From: a virus
Taxonomy: Duplodnaviria; Heunggongvirae; Uroviricota; Caudoviricetes
DNA: 8,112 bases
IMG/VR virus record: IMGVR_UViG_2563366903_000016
Strand: one strand, 5' to 3'
Part shown: one piece after another, positions 166 to 7,050 of the stretch
Layout of the letters: each line of letters starts with the position of its first letter
Position numbering within the stretch: the stretch's first letter is position 1
Notes under the pieces: generated by a model
What the model was told of the DNA's origin: nothing
The model's input: the letters and a program-made list of their open reading frames with translations, nothing else
The model's database searches: none
Program-made: the position numbers and the translations under genes

Positions 166-578
166 GCGTCGTACTCCCCGGCAGTTGCCACCTGAAACGC
201 CGCGCGGTACAGCACGAGAAGGCGCTGGTATTCGCCGATAAAACCTTCTGCGGTGTATATACCTTTCACGGCCACGCTGTGGGTTGTCATTTCCAGAACC
301 AGCGCCATCTCTGATGACGACCAGCTGATGGCGGTACTGTCGGTGCCGTTGATGTGAAATAAACCCAGTCCATCACCATCACCTTTCACGTCCACGCGGT
401 AACGACCGTCCACGGTGAAGGAGAAATCCCCGTATGTGGTGACGCTGCGGGCAGCCTGTTTACAGGCGCGGCGGTAATAGTCGTGCCAGTTGTTCAGGCG
501 GGAAGCCAGCAGGGGATCCACCGCCCACATCCAGTTAAAGAAGTCCTGAATATCTGAAAGTCCCTTAACGCTCTTCAT
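162..578 (-). CDS. hypothetical protein (138 aa)
   Basis: ORF-track ORF with ATG at 578-576 and GGAGG 5 nt upstream (581-590 on + reads gaacctccgg). Stop overlaps the next start (ATGA). Protein-like composition; no family recognised. Confidence 0.6.
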   Translation of the reverse strand: MKSVKGLSDIQDFFNWMWAVDPLLASRLNNWHDYYRRACKQAARSVTTYGDFSFTVDGRYRVDVKGDGDGLGLFHINGTDSTAISWSSSEMALVLEMTTHSVAVKGIYTAEGFIGEYQRLLVLYRAAFQVATAGEYDA

Positions 579-646
579 GAGAACCTCCGGTAACAGATGT
601 GCGGAAGCCTCCCGCGTGCAGGTGTGGGATAGCTTCCGGATGTGGT

Positions 647-868
647 TTATCGGTGCTGGTTGATGAGGCTTTGCAGTTCTGCCAGGTCTTCGGCCAGATA
701 GCTGAAGACTGCCGCGTAATACCCGGCAGCGATACCGTCGTTAAGTCGGTGTAATACGTTTGACTGCATGATAAAGGCGACAGATGCAGCCCGATGGAGT
801 CTGCGGTTGATTTCGCTGCGGATGTGAAGACGCTCAGCGCGGGCGCGCTGTTGCTTGCGGTTTGCCAT
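647..868 (-). CDS. hypothetical small basic protein (73 aa), possibly nucleic-acid binding
   Basis: ATG at 868 preceded by GAAGAGG about 7 nt upstream. Arg/Lys-rich N-terminus (MANRKQQRARAERLHIRSEINRRLHR) then a hydrophobic/acidic helix-like C-terminus. Function is inferred from composition only. Confidence 0.5.
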   Translation of the reverse strand: MANRKQQRARAERLHIRSEINRRLHRAASVAFIMQSNVLHRLNDGIAAGYYAAVFSYLAEDLAELQSLINQHR

Positions 869-957
869 GGTGTGGCCTCTTCGTTTGTGAATTTTGAAAA
901 CTCACCAACCAGAGGTGGAAAACTCAGGGTGGCGAGACGTACAGGGTTTCCACAACC

Positions 958-993
958 GGCAAACGAAGAAACCGGCCCGACCGAAGTCGGCCC
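958..993 (-). terminator. candidate rho-independent terminator (minus strand)
   Basis: GC-rich stem 974-981 / 986-993 (8 bp, one mismatch) with a 4-nt loop that reads UUCG on the minus-strand RNA, followed on that strand by a U-rich stretch GGUUUCUUCGUUUG (958-973). Confidence 0.3.
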
Positions 994-1047
994 TGTACGC
1001 CCCGCCATAATTCTGACGCGAAAAAGACGTGGCGATACAGTACGCAC

Positions 1048-1089
1048 AAAAAAACCGCTGGCGCGGCTGTGCGCTTCGTTTGTCAGCGG
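1048..1089 (-). terminator. rho-independent terminator (minus strand)
   Basis: Inverted repeat CCGCTG (1055-1060) / CAGCGG (1084-1089) with extra internal GCGC pairing, followed immediately on the minus strand by seven U (A7 on + at 1048-1054). Confidence 0.45.
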
Positions 1090-1165
1090 GGTGGAAATCC
1101 CGGCACCCGTTTTATGAGGTGCAGCGGAAATGTAACCCGACACGACGAGCGCTGGCAAGCGGTTT

Positions 1166-1193
1166 TTGTGTTGCGTGCTGAAGTATGTATAAT
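1166..1193 (+). promoter_or_regulatory. candidate sigma70 promoter for the plus-strand gene 1255-1722
   Basis: Perfect -10 TATAAT at 1188-1193. Best -35 candidate is TTGTGT at 1166-1171 (16-bp spacer). A 7-bp stem-loop (1196-1202 / 1212-1218) sits at the predicted 5' end of the transcript, and GGAGG at 1244-1248 lies 6 nt before the ATG. Confidence 0.4.
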
Positions 1194-1254
1194 CGCGGCG
1201 CAAAAATGGAATGCGCCGAGGGATAGCGGCGTTTATTAACAATGGAGGTTGTTT

Positions 1255-1722
1255 ATGCCTGTTGCTATGGAGCAAGCAGACAAGAAGATTTTTTTTCATC
1301 TGTGGTACAGCTATTGGCTGGAAGAGATGGTTTTCATACTCAGCAATAAAGCCGCTGCCATGTTGCGCGCCGGGGCGCTGATTGCTGCGGTATTGTCCTT
1401 TCTTCTGGTTGGTTTTCCCGTCCTGATGAGCCTTTGGGGGCTGGCGTTTTTTGTTTTTTCCTGGTTTTGCAGCAAGTGTGAATTCGTCGCCGAACTGGCG
1501 TGCTGGCAGAAACAGAGCTACCTTCGTCTGATTACGCAAAGGGATTTCATGAGCACTGAACGCCTGATTGAGCGCATTCTGTATCTGGAAGAAACGAACA
1601 GCGCATCCATGAAGGCGTTTGTCAGGCCCGCAAAAAACAAAGCGAGCGCATCTGTTGGTCTGTCTGCCAGCGAGCATTTGCGTTACTCCGAAAGGTTAAT
1701 CTGCTGGTTGTGCGGCGTCTGA
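1255..1722 (+). CDS. hypothetical membrane protein (155 aa), plus-strand accessory gene
   Basis: ATG at 1255 with GGAGG 6 nt upstream (track start 1249 is an in-frame TTG). Enterobacterial-looking codon usage (CTG, GCG, GAA, CGC rich). Long hydrophobic segment GALIAAVLSFLLVGFPVLMSLWGLAFFVFSWF suggests 1-2 transmembrane helices, then an ~80-aa soluble C-terminal region. Own promoter; 3' end overlaps the convergent gene 1683-2045 by 40 bp. The minus-strand 370-aa ORF over this region looks compositionally non-protein-like. Confidence 0.55.
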   Translation: MPVAMEQADKKIFFHLWYSYWLEEMVFILSNKAAAMLRAGALIAAVLSFLLVGFPVLMSLWGLAFFVFSWFCSKCEFVAELACWQKQSYLRLITQRDFMSTERLIERILYLEETNSASMKAFVRPAKNKASASVGLSASEHLRYSERLICWLCGV

Positions 1723-2045
1723 TCGACTCCCGGCTGCGTGATGCTTTTACCGTCTTCCCTGACAGGCGGTAATGACACGTCTATGTTCAGCTTGAGTGCC
1801 ATTGCGTACTCCGCCCGCGCGCCAGCTGAATCCTCCCAGCCTTCCAGCAAGTAAATGACATCGGCACACATGAGCATCGGAATACAAATGCTCATGTACT
1901 GCTGCTGGCTTAATCCTTCCGGCAACGTGGCAGGGTTCAGCACAACGTGCCCGTCTGCCGCGAGCCTCATCGCCTCTATGAAAAACGCCGTTCTGTTGTG
2001 ATCTTTGTATCCGGTCATTGGACCGGCGATATAAATCACTGCCAT
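1683..2045 (-). CDS. DUF4406 / nucleoside 2-deoxyribosyltransferase-like protein (120 aa)
   Basis: N-terminal VIYIAGPMTG motif, followed by NPA and GWEDSAGARAEYAMA segments typical of the small NDT-like Rossmann-fold family (from memory of the family pattern). GGGAGG RBS 5 nt upstream of ATG 2045. Last gene of the minus-strand operon. Confidence 0.6.
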   Translation of the reverse strand: MAVIYIAGPMTGYKDHNRTAFFIEAMRLAADGHVVLNPATLPEGLSQQQYMSICIPMLMCADVIYLLEGWEDSAGARAEYAMALKLNIDVSLPPVREDGKSITQPGVDQTPHNQQINLSE

Positions 2046-2521: not shown

Positions 2522-3502
2522 TTACGTACTGGCGGTGATTAACATCGCGCTGTAAGTTGCATCTTCCGTTACAGGTCCGCAGTCCGGGCAGTAGCCACCG
2601 CCATGGCGACCGCAGGCGTCGCACTGTCTCAGGGTGGCGATAACCTCCGGTGCTGATTCCCGGGTTCTTGCGCCAACGCTTCGTGGTGCCAGGATGGTGT
2701 TCATCCGGTAACCCTGATAAATGCGTCTGGTTTCCGGTGTGTCGGAATTGGAGATGGTGATGCTGGTCATGCCGCCCGTTTCCTGTGAAAGGCGGTCAAG
2801 CGCTGCCCTCAGACGAACGTGCTCGTCTTCATCGAATGGTTTTCCGTAGGCGGTAAAATTGTCCCGGCCACTGAATTGCAGGTAAGGGGGATCGCAGTAC
2901 ACGCAAAGCGTGTTGCCCATGCCGAACAGGTGACTGGCAGAGTTCAGCGTATCCTTAAAATCTGCGTGGATAAGCAGCGTTCGGGTGCTGTTTGCCTTGT
3001 CTGCAAATGCGCGGATTTCACGCTCAGGGAAGTAGGGCTTGCGGTAGCAGCCGAAAGGCACGTTAAAATCGCCTTTTCCGTTCACGCGGAACAAACTGTT
3101 AAAGCTGTGTCGGTTCAGGTACAAAAACATGGCGGCCAGTCGCAGTTCACGGCGGTCGCTTATTCCCGTTCTGCTGTTCAGGAAGGCATGATTCTCTGCG
3201 TTAAAGGTTTCGCGAATGATGAGATAGTCACCCCTGTTGTTGTGGTTCAGGAACAGGGTTTTCGCCTCGTCGATCAGGCTGTCGGTGTTGTCCCTGGCTT
3301 GCCGGTAGAAATTAATCAGCGCACCATTGGAATCACCCAGGATGTAACGCTTGTAACTGGTGTTCATGAATACCGATGCGCCGCCCACGAACGGCTCAAC
3401 CAGACAGTCGGCTTCTGGCAGGTGCGCCTTCAGTGTGTTCATGATGCGGCTTTTTCCGCCCACCCATTTCAGTGGCGTACCGGATAACAGTTCTTTGCTC
3501 AT
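2522..3502 (-). CDS. dam: DNA adenine (N6) methyltransferase, Dam family, with C-terminal Cys4 zinc-ribbon-like extension
   Basis: Dam-family signature blocks: LKWVGGKS, LVEPFVGGASVF (SAM-binding FxGxG), FLYLNR, FNVPFGCYRKPYFPE, catalytic VYCDPPY, NFTAY. Extra C-terminal tail carries CDACGRHGGGYCPDCG (CxxC-x8-CxxC). AAAGAGG RBS 7 nt upstream of ATG 3502; start overlaps the stop of the upstream ORF (ATGA). Confidence 0.9.
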   Translation of the reverse strand: MSKELLSGTPLKWVGGKSRIMNTLKAHLPEADCLVEPFVGGASVFMNTSYKRYILGDSNGALINFYRQARDNTDSLIDEAKTLFLNHNNRGDYLIIRETFNAENHAFLNSRTGISDRRELRLAAMFLYLNRHSFNSLFRVNGKGDFNVPFGCYRKPYFPEREIRAFADKANSTRTLLIHADFKDTLNSASHLFGMGNTLCVYCDPPYLQFSGRDNFTAYGKPFDEDEHVRLRAALDRLSQETGGMTSITISNSDTPETRRIYQGYRMNTILAPRSVGARTRESAPEVIATLRQCDACGRHGGGYCPDCGPVTEDATYSAMLITAST

Positions 3503-3726
3503 AACGCGGCCTCTTTGTTATAGTTTTCGTGCGTTAATAAATCCCATGACGCCCCGTTGTTTTTGCTCAGCAATCGCCAGCGAAAACCGATTCTTATTAC
3601 CAGGTAGTCGTGGGGTTTTATGCGTGAAAAATTCCGCACGCCGTCGCGGAATAAACGCAGCGATGCGCGGGCTTTTCTTTCCACGTTCAGGGGGGGGCAG
3701 CAACACACATTCAGGATGGCGACCAT
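3499..3726 (-). CDS. hypothetical small protein (75 aa) containing a C8/G8 homopolymer, translationally coupled to dam
   Basis: ATG at 3726 with strong GAGGTGA RBS 6 nt upstream, 9 nt after the exonuclease stop. Stop TGA overlaps the dam ATG (3499-3502). Codons 10-13 read through the homopolymer (TGC CCC CCC CTG). A second long open frame (3518-3706) also crosses the tract. Confidence 0.5.
   Translation of the reverse strand: MVAILNVCCCPPLNVERKARASLRLFRDGVRNFSRIKPHDYLVIRIGFRWRLLSKNNGASWDLLTHENYNKEAAL
3690..3697. repeat. G8/C8 homopolymeric tract (candidate slipped-strand site)
   Basis: Eight consecutive G on the plus strand (3690-3697), inside the 5' part of CDS 3499-3726. Confidence 0.9.
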
Positions 3727-3735
3727 GGCTTCACC

Positions 3736-4317
3736 TCATATGTTCAGGAATGGTGTTGTGAAGCGCTGCCAGATTTCTGACACGACCTTTGCCTGGTAAA
3801 TGGCGTCGCCCAGCGCGGTGTGAGCAATGGCCTCTTTTCCTGATCTGCCTGGCATTTTCCATCCAGTTGATTCAGCCATGGCGATAAGCGGGCGCATACA
3901 GCGCTCGTTCCAGTAGCACCAGGGGATGCTTTTTTCTCCGGCTGTGCGTGTTATGGCGGATTTCAGGATCGGGAAATCGAAGGATGCGCCCTTACACCAT
4001 ATGGTCAGTGAATTGCCCGTGCTTTCGTCATGCATATTGCGTGAAATGAACGCCAGAAATTCGGTTACTGCCGCAAGCTCTGTTCCCTCTGCGTTGCGCA
4101 GGCAGGATCTGGCCTCCACGGATTGTCCGGCCCACCATACGGCGGTTGCTGCATTGACGGTTCCACCGTTGCGTTCTGAATCCACCGGGTCGATGAGTTT
4201 CTCAAACTGTTTGCCCAGCTTTCCGGTGAACGGGTCGAAAAACACCGCGCCAATCGCGAATATGACTGCGTCCGGTCCGGTACCCAATGTTTCGGTGTCG
4301 ATCATGAGATGGTTCAC
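3736..4317 (-). CDS. DEDDh-family 3'-5' exonuclease (DnaQ-like fold)
   Basis: Exo I motif MIDTETLG (D-x-E), Exo II ASFDFPIL, Exo III HTALGDAIYQ (H-x4-D). Likely start is GTG at 4317 (AAGGAG 8 nt upstream; GTGA overlap with the upstream stop at 4314-4316); the alternative is ATG at 4305. Track start 4326 is a GTG directly abutting the SD and is unlikely. Confidence 0.8.
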   Translation of the reverse strand: MNHLMIDTETLGTGPDAVIFAIGAVFFDPFTGKLGKQFEKLIDPVDSERNGGTVNAATAVWWAGQSVEARSCLRNAEGTELAAVTEFLAFISRNMHDESTGNSLTIWCKGASFDFPILKSAITRTAGEKSIPWCYWNERCMRPLIAMAESTGWKMPGRSGKEAIAHTALGDAIYQAKVVSEIWQRFTTPFLNI

Positions 4318-5505: not shown

Positions 5506-5700
5506 TTACAGTGATTCGTCTCTTGTCAGCCTAAAAATCACTTCAGCCATGACTTCGCTAATTACATCGATCCCCTGATCGGTAAGGGCTTCTTTCCAGG
5601 CCTTGCTTGCACGTGTTGGATCCATCCTGCCTGATTGCTGTTGTATGATGATGAAGCGTAAATCGCTGTATAAGTCTTTTGTTTGAGTGGAGTCAGTCAT
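5506..5700 (-). CDS. hypothetical small protein (64 aa; possibly shorter, from internal ATG at 5625)
   Basis: ATG at 5700 with weak AAGG SD. Its start codon overlaps the start codon of the plus-strand gene on the opposite strand (CATG at 5698-5701). The internal ATG at 5625 has an AGGCAGG SD-like sequence. Confidence 0.4.
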   Translation of the reverse strand: MTDSTQTKDLYSDLRFIIIQQQSGRMDPTRASKAWKEALTDQGIDVISEVMAEVIFRLTRDESL

Positions 5701-6136
5701 GTCAATACCTTCAAATCTTGATGTTTTTAATGAAACAGTTGGTAAAACTTTTGCGTTTCTTTATGAAACTTTTCCCCGCAAAGTAACTATTGATATTTGT
5801 GCCTTAACCGGTGTTTCAGAGCTGACTTTTGAAGAAGACCGATCCTCCAGGAGGCAACTAGTTGAAGCTCTTGAGCTTCGCCGTGACTCCATCGCATGGC
5901 TTGTTGATGCTGGTTATGTATCCGCTAAATCTTCTCCTCCGCATTACTTTTCTGATGCGGTTCTCACGGCCAAAGGTCTTGAATTACTTAAGCTTGATCC
6001 AGAGTCACTTAAACAATCATTTGGCGACAAGCTTGTTGATGCAGCCAAGAGTGGCTCAATGGACGCGATAAAAAGCACCGCATCATCCGCTCTTACTACT
6101 GGGTTATCCTTTGCTTTCAAAAGTCTTCTTGGTTGA
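5699..6136 (+). CDS. hypothetical protein (145 aa) on the opposite strand in AT-rich DNA, candidate moron/accessory gene
   Basis: ATG at 5699 with GGAG 6 nt upstream (track start 5687 is an in-frame GTG). Coding region is visibly AT-richer than its flanks (by eye, not computed). Antisense to the early operon and convergent with cox. Candidate -10 TATAAG at 5669-5674; hairpin at 6179-6204 downstream. No family recognised. Confidence 0.55.
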   Translation: MSIPSNLDVFNETVGKTFAFLYETFPRKVTIDICALTGVSELTFEEDRSSRRQLVEALELRRDSIAWLVDAGYVSAKSSPPHYFSDAVLTAKGLELLKLDPESLKQSFGDKLVDAAKSGSMDAIKSTASSALTTGLSFAFKSLLG

Positions 6137-6217: not shown

Positions 6218-6643
6218 TTAAGCTGCTTTTTTACTGATACGTTTATTCCGTGAACCAGCTGCTGGCTTAAATAAAAAAAGTCGGTTTTCCCATTCGTGCC
6301 ATTCTTGCGGTGCGTTTTCAGTGAGTCGATCGCAGGCTTCATCCCATGCTTTCCGGTTGATGTAAAGTTCGGCGTTTCCGCCAGGCTTGAGAGGGTCCGC
6401 CATGTACACAGCGGGTAATTTCCCTGCTTTTGCCATGCTCACGATGGCGTCAACGGTCTTGCCGATATACATCGCAAACCCTTCTTTTGACAGGAGATGA
6501 GAAGGGTTTTGTGAAAGCCTGATTTCTTGGCGTTCAGGGGCTTTGCGCCCGGTCTTTTGGTGTGCGGTTTCTGGCGCATCTGTCAACTGATCGCACTGTG
6601 TTTCGGCAGGCGATTCAGGCGCGTTTTGAGTGACTTCTTGCAT
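6218..6643 (-). CDS. cox: Cox-like excisionase/transcriptional regulator with an N-terminal acidic extension
   Basis: C-terminal ~85 aa (EGFAMYIGKTVDAIVSMAKAGKLPAVYMADP ... AELYINRKAWDE) match my recollection of P2 Cox (EFAKLIGKSTGAVRRMIDKGKLPVIDMTDP ... AGEYWVYLPAWN). ATG at 6643 has GGAGGA 5 nt upstream; an internal ATG at 6472 also has an SD (GAAGGG) but would remove conserved residues. Divergent from the repressor gene. Confidence 0.65.
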   Translation of the reverse strand: MQEVTQNAPESPAETQCDQLTDAPETAHQKTGRKAPERQEIRLSQNPSHLLSKEGFAMYIGKTVDAIVSMAKAGKLPAVYMADPLKPGGNAELYINRKAWDEACDRLTENAPQEWHEWENRLFLFKPAAGSRNKRISKKAA

Positions 6644-6750: not shown

Positions 6751-7050
6751 ATGTCAACTAACGTAGGTGAAAAAATTAGAATCATGCGTAAGTCTGAAAT
6801 GCTTACACAAGAAAAAATGGCTGAAATTACAGGGCTCACGGTAGCGGCCCTGCGTCAATATGAACAGGGGAGAAATGAGCCAAATCTTGAATCCACAAAA
6901 AAGCTGCTCAAGTCTCCCGTCTTCCGTAAATACCGTGACTGGTTTTTGTTCGATGAGGTCGAACCAAAGGCCGGGCAGGTGGTACCGGCTCTCGCACACA
7001 TTGGGCGAAGCGAATCGGAATCACCCCACTCCGGCAAGAAGACTGGTTAA
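6751..7050 (+). CDS. C: P2 C-type immunity repressor (99 aa)
   Basis: Length and sequence match my recollection of P2 C: EKIRIMRKSE, ITGLTVAALRQYEQGR (HTH region), and C-terminal PALAHIGRSESESPHSGKKTG against P2 PALAHFGQNETTSPHSGQKTG. Sits immediately upstream of int on the same strand, as in P2. Confidence 0.85.
   Translation: MSTNVGEKIRIMRKSEMLTQEKMAEITGLTVAALRQYEQGRNEPNLESTKKLLKSPVFRKYRDWFLFDEVEPKAGQVVPALAHIGRSESESPHSGKKTG

What the first reader, a model, noticed from the sequence alone, without database searches (positions are those of the whole stretch)
1166..1722. Promoter-driven membrane-protein gene convergent with the early operon
The plus-strand ORF 1255-1722 has a perfect TATAAT -10, a 5' stem-loop, a GGAGG SD and host-like codon usage. 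It encodes a protein with a long hydrophobic segment and a soluble C-terminal domain. It runs convergent to the last early gene and overlaps it by 40 bp, so early read-through is antisense to it until the terminator at 1048-1089. This looks like a lysogen-expressed accessory gene that lytic transcription silences; small prophage membrane proteins in this arrangement are often exclusion or abortive-infection factors. I could not assign a family.
Basis: partly seen in the sequence, partly recalled or inferred. Interest (0 to 1): 0.7.

Follow-up and report, generated by a model that had tools for sequence, protein, structure and literature searches.

The report
Prophage accessory gene for membrane-hairpin protein
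The flagged ORF is a real, conserved gene for a small inner-membrane hairpin protein of unknown function, carried with its own promoter on the "lysogenic" strand of a P2-like E. coli prophage. It is a plausible but untested candidate for a phage-exclusion or abortive-infection factor.

Summary
The window is the immunity/early arm of a P88-like (P2 family) E. coli prophage. ORF 1255-1722(+) is a genuine gene. dN/dS is 0.13-0.23 in its frame and above 1 in the long antisense ORF. It matches phrog_6315 (E 6e-28) and has 23-39%-identical homologues only in Enterobacterales prophages. TATAAT (1188-1193), GGAGG (1244-1248) and the 40-bp overlap with the DUF4406 gene are all present.

The protein is a two-TM helical hairpin with both ends in the cytoplasm (AlphaFold pLDDT 83). 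It resembles SLATT effector domains below threshold (family consensus vs SLATT_4, E 7e-6, 26 bits, cutoff 55).

In every context examined (P2-, 186-, Mu- and lambda-like) the gene lies opposite the lytic operon. Sibling prophages with 92-100%-identical flanks carry a 38%-identical allele in the same slot, with the -10 at the same position.

DUF4406 is not the last early gene. The "terminator" belongs to an isrK sRNA gene with its own promoter, followed by a C4 antisense RNA, a derepression protein and replication gene A.

The anti-phage role is inference only. This is an uncharacterised member of a familiar kind, of moderate interest.

The parts
1166..1193 (+). Putative sigma-70 promoter of the cassette: -35-like TTGTGT (1166-1171), 16-nt spacer, -10 TATAAT (1188-1193)
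   Evidence: The -35 half lies in DNA shared with all relatives. The -10 lies in allele-specific DNA but sits at the same position (TAGAAT) in the 38%-identical allele class. The strict consensus scan did not call it.
1197..1231 (+). 5' UTR with two mutually exclusive short hairpins (GGCGCA/TGCGCC at 1197-1217; CGCCG/CGGCG at 1214-1231)
   Evidence: Sequence inspection, the terminator-like call for 1231-1214 on the minus strand, and a fold z-score of -0.47, which is not distinctive.
1244..1248 (+). Shine-Dalgarno GGAGG, 6 nt upstream of the ATG at 1255
   Evidence: The TTG at 1249 listed by the ORF finder abuts the SD, so ATG 1255 is the start, as in RefSeq.
1255..1722 (+). CDS for a 155-aa two-TM hairpin inner-membrane protein (phrog_6315 family; distant SLATT-like)
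   Evidence: phrog_6315 E 5.6e-28. dN/dS 0.13-0.23. Homologues. AlphaFold pLDDT 83, with helices 2-51 and 54-94 plus three short helices. SLATT_4/SLATT_1 sub-threshold hits.
1185..1790 (.). Allelic replacement cassette: the segment that differs (57% nt identity) from sibling prophages, whose flanks are 92-100% identical
   Evidence: The left boundary at 1184/1185 falls between the -35 and the -10. The right boundary at about 1790 falls inside the 3' tail of the DUF4406 gene.
1683..2045 (-). DUF4406 (nucleoside 2-deoxyribosyltransferase-like) early gene, convergent with the CDS; its 3' end overlaps it by 40 bp
   Evidence: PF14359 E 1.5e-33 and phrog_355. The association with the two-TM gene is not conserved.
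1129..1158 (-). Promoter of isrK, back-to-back with the cassette promoter (TTGCCA, then TACATT/TTACAT)
   Evidence: The -10 ends 7 nt before the Rfam-defined 5' end of isrK at 1122.
   Evidence: Rfam RF01394, 64.1 bits (gathering score 50), E 2.7e-12. Terminator hairpin at 1068-1053 plus a U-run.
925..1012 (-). C4-type antisense RNA (P1 immI-like)
   Evidence: Rfam RF01695, 82.1 bits (gathering score 45), E 1.7e-15. Its loop is complementary to the RBS region of the next gene.
647..868 (-). 73-aa derepression (P4 epsilon-like) protein gene downstream of C4
   Evidence: PF25738, 27.9 bits (cutoff 27), E 2e-6. phrog_3688 E 1e-31.

Best explanation
The finding is a self-contained accessory cassette (a 'moron') in a P88-like, P2-family prophage.

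1. A sigma-70 promoter (TTGTGT-16-TATAAT) sits back-to-back with the isrK promoter. It drives a 155-aa protein on the same strand as the C repressor and integrase, so the gene can be expressed while the lytic operon is repressed.
2. The protein inserts into the inner membrane as a two-TM helical hairpin. Its N- and C-terminal helices are cytoplasmic and form a conserved juxtamembrane/cytoplasmic domain.
3. It is probably a very distant, stand-alone relative of SLATT two-TM effectors.
4. My best guess at function is protection of the lysogen against other phages. On a cue from the infecting phage it would perturb the membrane (abortive infection) or block an entry step (exclusion).
5. When its own prophage goes lytic, transcription from Pe runs antisense through the whole gene and should reduce its expression by convergent transcription.

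Shown: coding, conservation, fold class, orientation, cassette boundaries and allelic replacement.
Inferred: promoter activity, expression in lysogens, antisense silencing, SLATT homology and the anti-phage role.
For: Coding:
- dN/dS is 0.13-0.23 in the + frame among 8 close alleles, and 0.06-0.12 among Fels-2-type alleles.
- phrog_6315 matches at E 5.6e-28.
- Intact homologues at 23-39% identity share motifs (F-x-L-W-Y-S-Y-W-L-E; A-E-x-A-x-x-Q-A-x-R-Y; L-E-E-x-D-S; N-P-A-x-N).

Membrane hairpin:
- Hydrophobic stretch at aa 33-72 with a G-F-P turn, flanked by K/R on both sides.
- AlphaFold pLDDT 83, pTM 0.73.

SLATT lead:
- 9 of 25 members hit NCBIfam SLATT_4 (best E 2e-4) and 4 hit SLATT_1.
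- The matches are co-linear (aa 26-103 to profile positions 27-112 of 154).
- The family consensus improves to E 7e-6 for SLATT_4 and 0.006 for SLATT_1, the top two hits.
- Six of the top 33 Foldseek hits in BFVD are SLATT-annotated, all weak.

Moron behaviour:
- Absent from P88 itself.
- Found in only about 12 + 25 of 5426 complete E. coli genomes.
- Opposite to the lytic genes in P88-like, Firavirus, 186/Fels-2-like, Pectobacterium P2-like (there upstream of C-int), Mu-like and lambdoid phages.
- The -10 is conserved in position between diverged alleles. Distant members have a conserved TGGTAnnnT extended -10 pattern.

Conflict-like evolution:
- A 38%-identical allele sits in the same slot between 92-100%-identical flanks.
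- One strain carries two heteroimmune sibling prophages with different alleles.
Against: - No expression or phenotype data exist; a literature search found nothing on the Fels-2 homologue.
- There is no hit to any PADLOC defence model at a meaningful E-value.
- SLATT scores are far below curated cutoffs (20-26 bits vs 55). Pfam SLATT models give at most E 0.11.
- A comparably 'significant' hit to the TM region of AdrA (E 1e-4) shows that TM composition alone can produce such E-values.
- Unlike known SLATT systems, no nucleotide-generating, RT or other sensor partner is adjacent.
- The -35 is poor and no + strand terminator is evident.
- Structure searches of PDB give only generic helical hairpins.
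Confidence: 0.5

Rival explanations
1. The membrane protein serves the prophage or host physiology rather than inter-phage conflict. Examples would be modulating a host membrane protein or protease, stress tolerance or envelope properties of the lysogen, or tuning the phage's own induction or lysis.
For: There is no match to known defence families. The gene sits beside the regulatory isrK/C4/derepression module and shares a back-to-back promoter region with it. It is a single gene without a sensor partner.
Against: - Extreme allelic divergence between near-identical flanks, and mobility between unrelated phage types, are more typical of conflict genes than of housekeeping phage functions.
- The gene is dispensable for the phage type, since it is absent in P88.
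- Its orientation opposite the lytic genes argues against a role in lysis.
Confidence: 0.2
2. It is the toxin of an addiction or toxin-antitoxin-like module. It would be a membrane-damaging protein held in check by the upstream micro-peptide seen in distant relatives or, in this solo E. coli allele, by antisense RNA from the convergent early operon.
For: - Distant members are always preceded by a conserved 26-58-aa ORF whose stop lies 3-9 nt before the two-TM gene start, which suggests translational coupling.
- The two-TM hairpin resembles pore-forming effectors.
- The full-length antisense arrangement is present here.
Against: - The window allele and the second E. coli allele class lack the micro-ORF yet are under purifying selection.
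- In a lysogen Pe is repressed, so antisense RNA would be lowest exactly when the supposed toxin is made.
- The protein is much larger than type I toxins.
Confidence: 0.15
3. The protein is incidental. What matters would be the + strand transcript, acting as a convergent or antisense brake on leaky early-operon transcription towards isrK/C4/gpA.
For: There is no obvious + strand terminator, so the transcript would run antisense into DUF4406 and beyond. The gene is full-length antisense to any Pe read-through.
Against: Strong purifying selection acts specifically on the + reading frame. Protein motifs are conserved at 23-39% identity across genera and across quite different genomic contexts, including one where nothing is convergent.
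Confidence: 0.04
4. The real gene is on the minus strand: the 370-aa ORF 565-1677 here, STM2733.1 in Fels-2, or gp08 in Yersinia phage vB_YenM_42.18.
For: A long open minus-strand frame exists. Two public phage records annotate minus-strand ORFs over the homologous region.
Against: - The 370-aa ORF runs through two Rfam-confirmed RNA genes and the derepression gene.
- Its frame has dN/dS 1.3-2.7.
- The STM2733.1 frame has dN/dS 1.4-2.75 and 4 stops in a relative.
Confidence: 0.01

Closest known systems
SLATT domain proteins (SMODS- and SLOG-associating 2TM effectors; NCBIfam NF033632 SLATT_4, NF033634 SLATT_1) of CBASS, RADAR, DRT3/DRT10 and AbiA-type systems
   Same: - About 150-aa size.
- A two-TM hairpin at the tip of two long helices, with cytoplasmic helical extensions.
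- SLATT_4 and SLATT_1 are the best and second-best NCBIfam matches of the family consensus, and the matches are co-linear.
- Carriage on prophages and satellites (PMC9122126; bioRxiv 10.64898/2026.04.29.721553).
   Different: - Scores are far below the curated cutoffs.
- There is no associated cyclase, SLOG, reverse transcriptase or other partner; the gene is solo here, or paired only with a micro-peptide in relatives.
- It has its own promoter and is embedded antisense in a lytic operon.
SieB of P22/lambda with the sas antisense RNA (my own knowledge; also mentioned in PMC7067206)
   Same: It is a small prophage-expressed inner-membrane protein located inside an early region. Its expression would be linked to antisense transcription. 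The proposed role is exclusion or abortive infection.
   Different: There is no sequence relationship beyond a chance-level Pfam SieB hit of the family consensus (E 0.034). No internal Esc-type start and no dedicated antisense promoter was found.
P2 lysogenic-conversion genes (old, tin, fun/Z) and the P2/P4 defence hotspots of Rousset et al. 2022 (PMC9122126)
   Same: It is a variable accessory locus of P2-like prophages with high turnover between conserved anchor genes. The expected role is in inter-phage competition.
   Different: The position differs: between the DUF4406 early gene and the isrK/C4 module, not next to cos. The slot holds diverged alleles of one family rather than unrelated systems. 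There is no experimental validation.
phrog_6315 (PHROGs v4, unknown function)
   Same: Full-length match: aa 9-154 to profile positions 4-148 of 152, E 5.6e-28.
   Different: The family has no annotated function, so membership adds no mechanism.

Membership tests
phrog_6315 (unknown function) | Full-length match to the family profile | tested here: met
   E 5.6e-28, 98.7 bits, aa 9-154 vs profile positions 4-148 of 152.
SLATT domain (SLATT_4 / SLATT_1) | Score above the curated family threshold (NCBIfam 55 / 41 bits; Pfam gathering score) | tested here: not met
   Window protein: no hit. Best members: 20 bits, E 4e-4. Family consensus: 25.9 bits, E 7e-6 for SLATT_4, and 14.5-16.6 bits for SLATT_1. 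Pfam SLATT_4: E 0.11 in 1 of 11 members.
SLATT domain (SLATT_4 / SLATT_1) | Core of two transmembrane helices forming a hairpin, flanked by helical extensions | tested here: met
   Hydropathy: aa 33-72 with a G-F-P turn. AlphaFold helices 2-51 and 54-94 plus three C-terminal helices, pLDDT 83.
SLATT domain (SLATT_4 / SLATT_1) | Genomic association with a nucleotide-generating or sensor partner (SMODS, SLOG, RT, RADAR, CBASS genes) | tested here: not met
   Neighbours are ordinary phage early or regulatory genes in six different contexts. The adjacent DUF4406 gene is not conserved as a neighbour.
SLATT domain (SLATT_4 / SLATT_1) | Membrane permeabilisation or cell killing on activation | not testable with these tools
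   Needs expression, membrane-potential and viability assays.
Prophage moron (Hendrix-type accessory cassette) | Present in some and absent in closely related phages, inserted between conserved genes | tested here: met
   Absent from P88. Cassette limits are 1185 to about 1790 between conserved flanks. Found in 12 + 25 of 5426 E. coli genomes.
Prophage moron (Hendrix-type accessory cassette) | Own promoter | tested here: inconclusive
   TATAAT sits 61 nt upstream of the ATG, and the -10 position is conserved in the diverged allele. The -35 is only 3/6 and the scan did not call the site. No transcript data.
Prophage moron (Hendrix-type accessory cassette) | Own terminator | tested here: not met
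   No convincing + strand intrinsic terminator downstream of 1722. The gene ends inside the convergent DUF4406 gene.
Prophage moron (Hendrix-type accessory cassette) | Expressed from the repressed prophage | not testable with these tools
   Orientation with C/int and against the lytic genes in all contexts is consistent, but no RNA data were available.
SieB superinfection exclusion protein (PF14163) | Match to the family profile | tested here: not met
   Only the family consensus gives E 0.034, 14 bits (cutoff 26), over the TM region. The window protein gives nothing.
Known anti-phage defence proteins (PADLOC-DB v2) | Match to any defence-system model | tested here: not met
   No hit for the window protein. 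Across 25 members only single hits at E 0.02-0.06, two of them to CBASS '2TM effector' models.
Holin | Small TM protein encoded in a lysis cassette next to an endolysin and transcribed late | tested here: not met
   The gene lies in the early/immunity arm, opposite to the lytic transcription, with no lysis genes nearby.

The most novel reading that the evidence does not exclude
The family is a previously unrecognised anti-phage system. It would be a stand-alone, very divergent SLATT-type pore effector. In most relatives it forms a translationally coupled pair with a conserved 26-58-aa proline-rich/acidic micro-peptide that could act as sensor, adaptor or antidote. It travels as a promoter-bearing cassette between P2-, 186-, Mu- and lambda-like prophages. 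It is always planted antisense inside a lytic operon, so the carrier phage switches it off by convergent transcription when it is itself induced. Hypervariable alleles in one slot would set its specificity.
Probability: 0.25. Interest if true: 0.65.

Novelty: new member of a known kind. Interest (0 to 1): 0.45.

Why it matters
Prophage accessory genes expressed during lysogeny are a main source of new phage-defence and lysogenic-conversion functions. This family has no Pfam model. It is mis-annotated on the wrong strand in reference phages such as Fels-2. Yet it is under strong purifying selection, moves between unrelated temperate phages, and shows allele replacement between near-identical prophages.

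If it proves to be a solo SLATT-like effector, it would show how such pore-formers can work without a dedicated enzymatic sensor. It would also give a compact example of a defence gene that its own phage silences by antisense transcription. If it has no anti-phage role, it is simply one more uncharacterised prophage membrane protein.

Tried and rejected
- Minus-strand coding was rejected. This covers the 370-aa ORF 565-1677, Fels-2 STM2733.1 and Yersinia gp08. Evidence: dN/dS above 1, stop codons in relatives, and overlap with Rfam RNAs.
- The 5' stem-loop as a special regulatory structure was rejected. The fold is no better than shuffles.
- Codon usage as evidence of host adaptation is not discriminating. 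It matches the neighbouring genes.
- A functional link to the adjacent DUF4406 (nucleoside deoxyribosyltransferase-like) gene, by analogy to 'SLOG-associated' effectors, was rejected. The neighbour differs in O103:H2 (MarR), Fels-2 (Fil), Pectobacterium (Cox/C) and Mu-like loci.
- Pfam, PADLOC and PDB sequence searches gave nothing significant.
- Foldseek against BFVD gave only weak hits. The AFDB libraries were unavailable.
- I considered whether the conserved hairpin upstream of distant members is an isrK-like RNA. Rfam gave no match.
- The micro-peptide matched no PHROG family.
- A genome-contig scan with the alignment failed because no segment was conserved enough.
- Literature searches found nothing for the Fels-2 homologue (STM2734). 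The original SLATT paper was not held in the library.

Full report
**Context.** The window is the left (immunity/early) arm of a P2-family prophage of the P88 type (Xuanwuvirus-like).
- It matches two complete E. coli chromosomes end to end at 98-99% identity, and matches phage P88 in patches.
- In strain DETEC-S792 it sits next to chpSB/ppa.
- The + strand carries the C-type repressor (6751-7050) and the integrase (to 8112).
- The minus strand carries Cox (6218-6643) and an early operon: DUF4761, DUF4754, a 3'-5' exonuclease, a Dam methylase, two small ORFs, and a DUF4406 gene at 1683-2045.

**Observation.**
- The best -35 is weak (TTGTGT, 16-nt spacer), so the strict consensus scan did not report the site.
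- A single TATAAT is not unusual in 8 kb.
- The 5' UTR contains two alternative short hairpins but folds no better than shuffled sequence (z = -0.47).
- Composition (GC 50%, GC3 0.61, 3.8% rare codons) matches the neighbouring phage genes, so 'host-like codon usage' carries no information.

**Corrections to the described context.** DUF4406 is not the last early gene, and the 'terminator at 1048-1089' is not a free-standing operon terminator.
- On the minus strand, Rfam finds an isrK-type sRNA (1122-1048, 64 bits) and a C4-type antisense RNA (1012-925, 82 bits), both well above gathering scores.
- isrK has its own promoter (TTGCCA...TACATT, 1158-1129), positioned to start at 1122.
- Downstream follow a 73-aa P4-epsilon-like 'derepression' protein (868-647, PF25738), a 138-aa ORF (phrog_3237), and then replication endonuclease gpA, whose 5' end reaches into the window's first ~165 bases (window coordinates converted from L001).
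- So the target gene sits in the middle of the leftward transcription path. Its promoter is back-to-back with the isrK promoter, with about 8 bp between the two -35 elements.

**Is it a gene?** Yes.
- It matches phrog_6315 over its full length (E 5.6e-28).
- An exhaustive search of 1.8 billion representative proteins found only 11 clusters. Profile searches found 36 clusters, all Enterobacterales 'hypothetical proteins' with no Pfam domain.
- The hosts are Escherichia, Salmonella, Yersinia, Pectobacterium, Brenneria, Hafnia, Sodalis, Kosakonia, Cedecea, Enterobacter and Edwardsiella.
- Alignments show conserved motifs at 23-39% identity.
- Among eight close alleles, Nei-Gojobori dN/dS is 0.13-0.23 in the + frame and 1.3-2.7 in the frame of the 370-aa minus ORF.
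- In the Fels-2 allele group the + frame gives 0.06-0.12. The frame of the annotated minus-strand ORF STM2733.1 gives 1.4-2.75 and carries four stops in one relative.
- The + ORF is intact in all loci retrieved.

**The protein.**
- Hydropathy shows one 35-40-residue hydrophobic stretch (aa 33-72) broken by G-F-P, with K/R on both flanks.
- AlphaFold with a 25-sequence alignment gives a confident model (pLDDT 83, pTM 0.73). Two long helices (2-51, 54-94) form a hairpin whose tip is the hydrophobic part, followed by three short helices.
- The reading is a two-TM hairpin with N-in/C-in topology and a conserved cytoplasmic domain. Invariant residues are E23, A82, Q85, Y89, L92 and A126.

**The SLATT lead.**
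- 9 of 25 members hit NCBIfam SLATT_4 (best E 2e-4) and 4 hit SLATT_1.
- The matches are co-linear (aa 26-103 to profile positions 27-112 of 154).
- The family HMM consensus improves to E 7e-6 for SLATT_4, with SLATT_1 also listed; in the majority-consensus run these are the only two hits.
- Six of the top 33 weak Foldseek hits in BFVD are SLATT-annotated giant-virus proteins.
- Against this, all scores are far below the curated cutoffs. A similar E-value to the TM domain of AdrA shows that composition can mimic such hits.
- I rate true SLATT homology at roughly 55-60%.
- SLATT proteins are predicted pore-forming effectors of CBASS, RADAR and DRT systems (bioRxiv 10.1101/2021.12.02.470933; 10.64898/2026.04.29.721553). 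No SMODS, SLOG, RT, CBASS or RADAR partner gene is adjacent in the six contexts examined.

**Comparative anatomy.**
- The cassette is bounded at 1184/1185, between the -35 and the -10. On the other side it ends at about 1790, inside the non-domain tail of DUF4406.
- Relatives share 92% identity to the left and 94-100% to the right, but only 57% nt (38% aa) identity inside.
- The sibling prophages therefore do not lack the gene. They carry a strongly diverged allele of the same family, with TAGAAT exactly where this window has TATAAT.
- P88 itself has unrelated minus-strand genes in the slot.
- Allele class 1 occurs in about 12, and class 2 in 25, of 5426 complete E. coli genomes.
- DETEC-S792 has two sibling prophages. 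They share many identical early proteins but differ in C, Cox-position gene, integrase and two-TM allele.
- More distant members lie:
  - between fil and DUF5347 in 186/Fels-2-like prophages of Salmonella;
  - between cox and C, co-oriented with C-int, in Pectobacterium;
  - between the large terminase and small genes in a Mu-like prophage;
  - inside the early operon of a Yersinia Firavirus;
  - inside the leftward early operon of a lambdoid Providencia phage.
- In every case the gene runs against the surrounding lytic genes. This is the strongest indirect evidence for expression from the repressed prophage.

**Mechanism (inference).**
- The cassette promoter would fire in the lysogen.
- The hairpin protein would sit in the inner membrane.
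- On induction, Pe transcription would cross the entire gene in antisense and lower its expression. The closest analogy is P22 sieB with its sas RNA.
- Hypervariable alleles in one slot, horizontal mobility between phage types and the SLATT-like architecture point to inter-phage conflict (abortive infection or exclusion). None of this has been tested.
- Rivals are a lysogen-physiology or self-regulation role, a toxin-antitoxin-like module, and an RNA-only role. The last is made unlikely by the codon-level selection.

**Verdict.** The 'lysogen-expressed accessory membrane protein' reading is well supported comparatively. The anti-phage function is plausible but unproven. This is an uncharacterised member of a familiar kind of prophage gene and a reasonable candidate for experimental screening. 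Interest is moderate.

Noticed in passing
window 647-1158, minus strand: A P1 immI-like regulatory module sits inside a P2-like prophage. It consists of its own promoter, an isrK sRNA, a C4 antisense RNA, and then a P4-epsilon-like derepression protein. The mRNA just 5' of that gene's ATG (AAACGAAGAGGCCACACC-AUG) is complementary to the C4 loop sequences UUUCUUCGUUU and UUGUGG. C4 would therefore mask the RBS, as it does at icd in P1. Replication gene A lies downstream of this module, so its expression may depend on read-through of the isrK terminator.
   Followed up: partly
L006 5891-5971, L009 5881-5994, L003 4867-4986, L049 3342-3458 and IMG/VR loci L027-L046 (upstream of the family gene): Distant family members are preceded by a conserved micro-ORF of 26-58 aa that is unannotated in all but one record. 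Its motif is D-x-F-H-x-L-H-K-P-A-P followed by an acidic tail. Its stop codon lies 3-9 nt before the two-TM gene start, and it matches no PHROG. The window allele and the second E. coli allele class lack it.
   Followed up: partly
L006 ~5825-5870, L009 ~5800-5845, L011 ~5855-5895, and others: A conserved hairpin, GCCGGG-N(8-13)-CCCGGC, is followed by TGGTAnnnT (an extended -10 pattern) upstream of the micro-ORF. It occurs in cassettes carried by 186-like, P2-like and Mu-like prophages. It matches no Rfam family. It could be the cassette promoter plus an operator, or a recombination boundary.
   Followed up: partly
L048 (Fels-2 NC_010463) 3414-3818 minus; L003 (Yersinia phage vB_YenM_42.18) 4803-5468 minus: The reference annotations STM2733.1 and gp08 are probably called on the wrong strand. 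The + strand family gene shows dN/dS 0.06-0.12, while the STM2733.1 frame shows 1.4-2.75 and has stops in a relative.
   Followed up: yes
window 5687-6136 (+): A second gene is oriented against the early operon, between the 64-aa ORF and Cox. It encodes 149 aa, matches phrog_2266 and has no Pfam or PADLOC hit. Its composition is clearly atypical (GC 43%, GC3 0.31). It is absent from the sibling prophage in the same strain, so it is likely another moron.
   Followed up: partly
L001 and L050 (E. coli DETEC-S792, 4.05 Mb and 5.35 Mb): One strain carries two P88-like prophages. They share identical exonuclease and several identical small early proteins. They differ in repressor, Cox-position gene, integrase and the allele of the two-TM gene (38% identity).
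   Followed up: partly
window 565-1677 (-): A 370-aa open frame runs antisense through the target gene, isrK, C4 and the derepression gene. It is a non-coding artefact (dN/dS above 1).
   Followed up: yes
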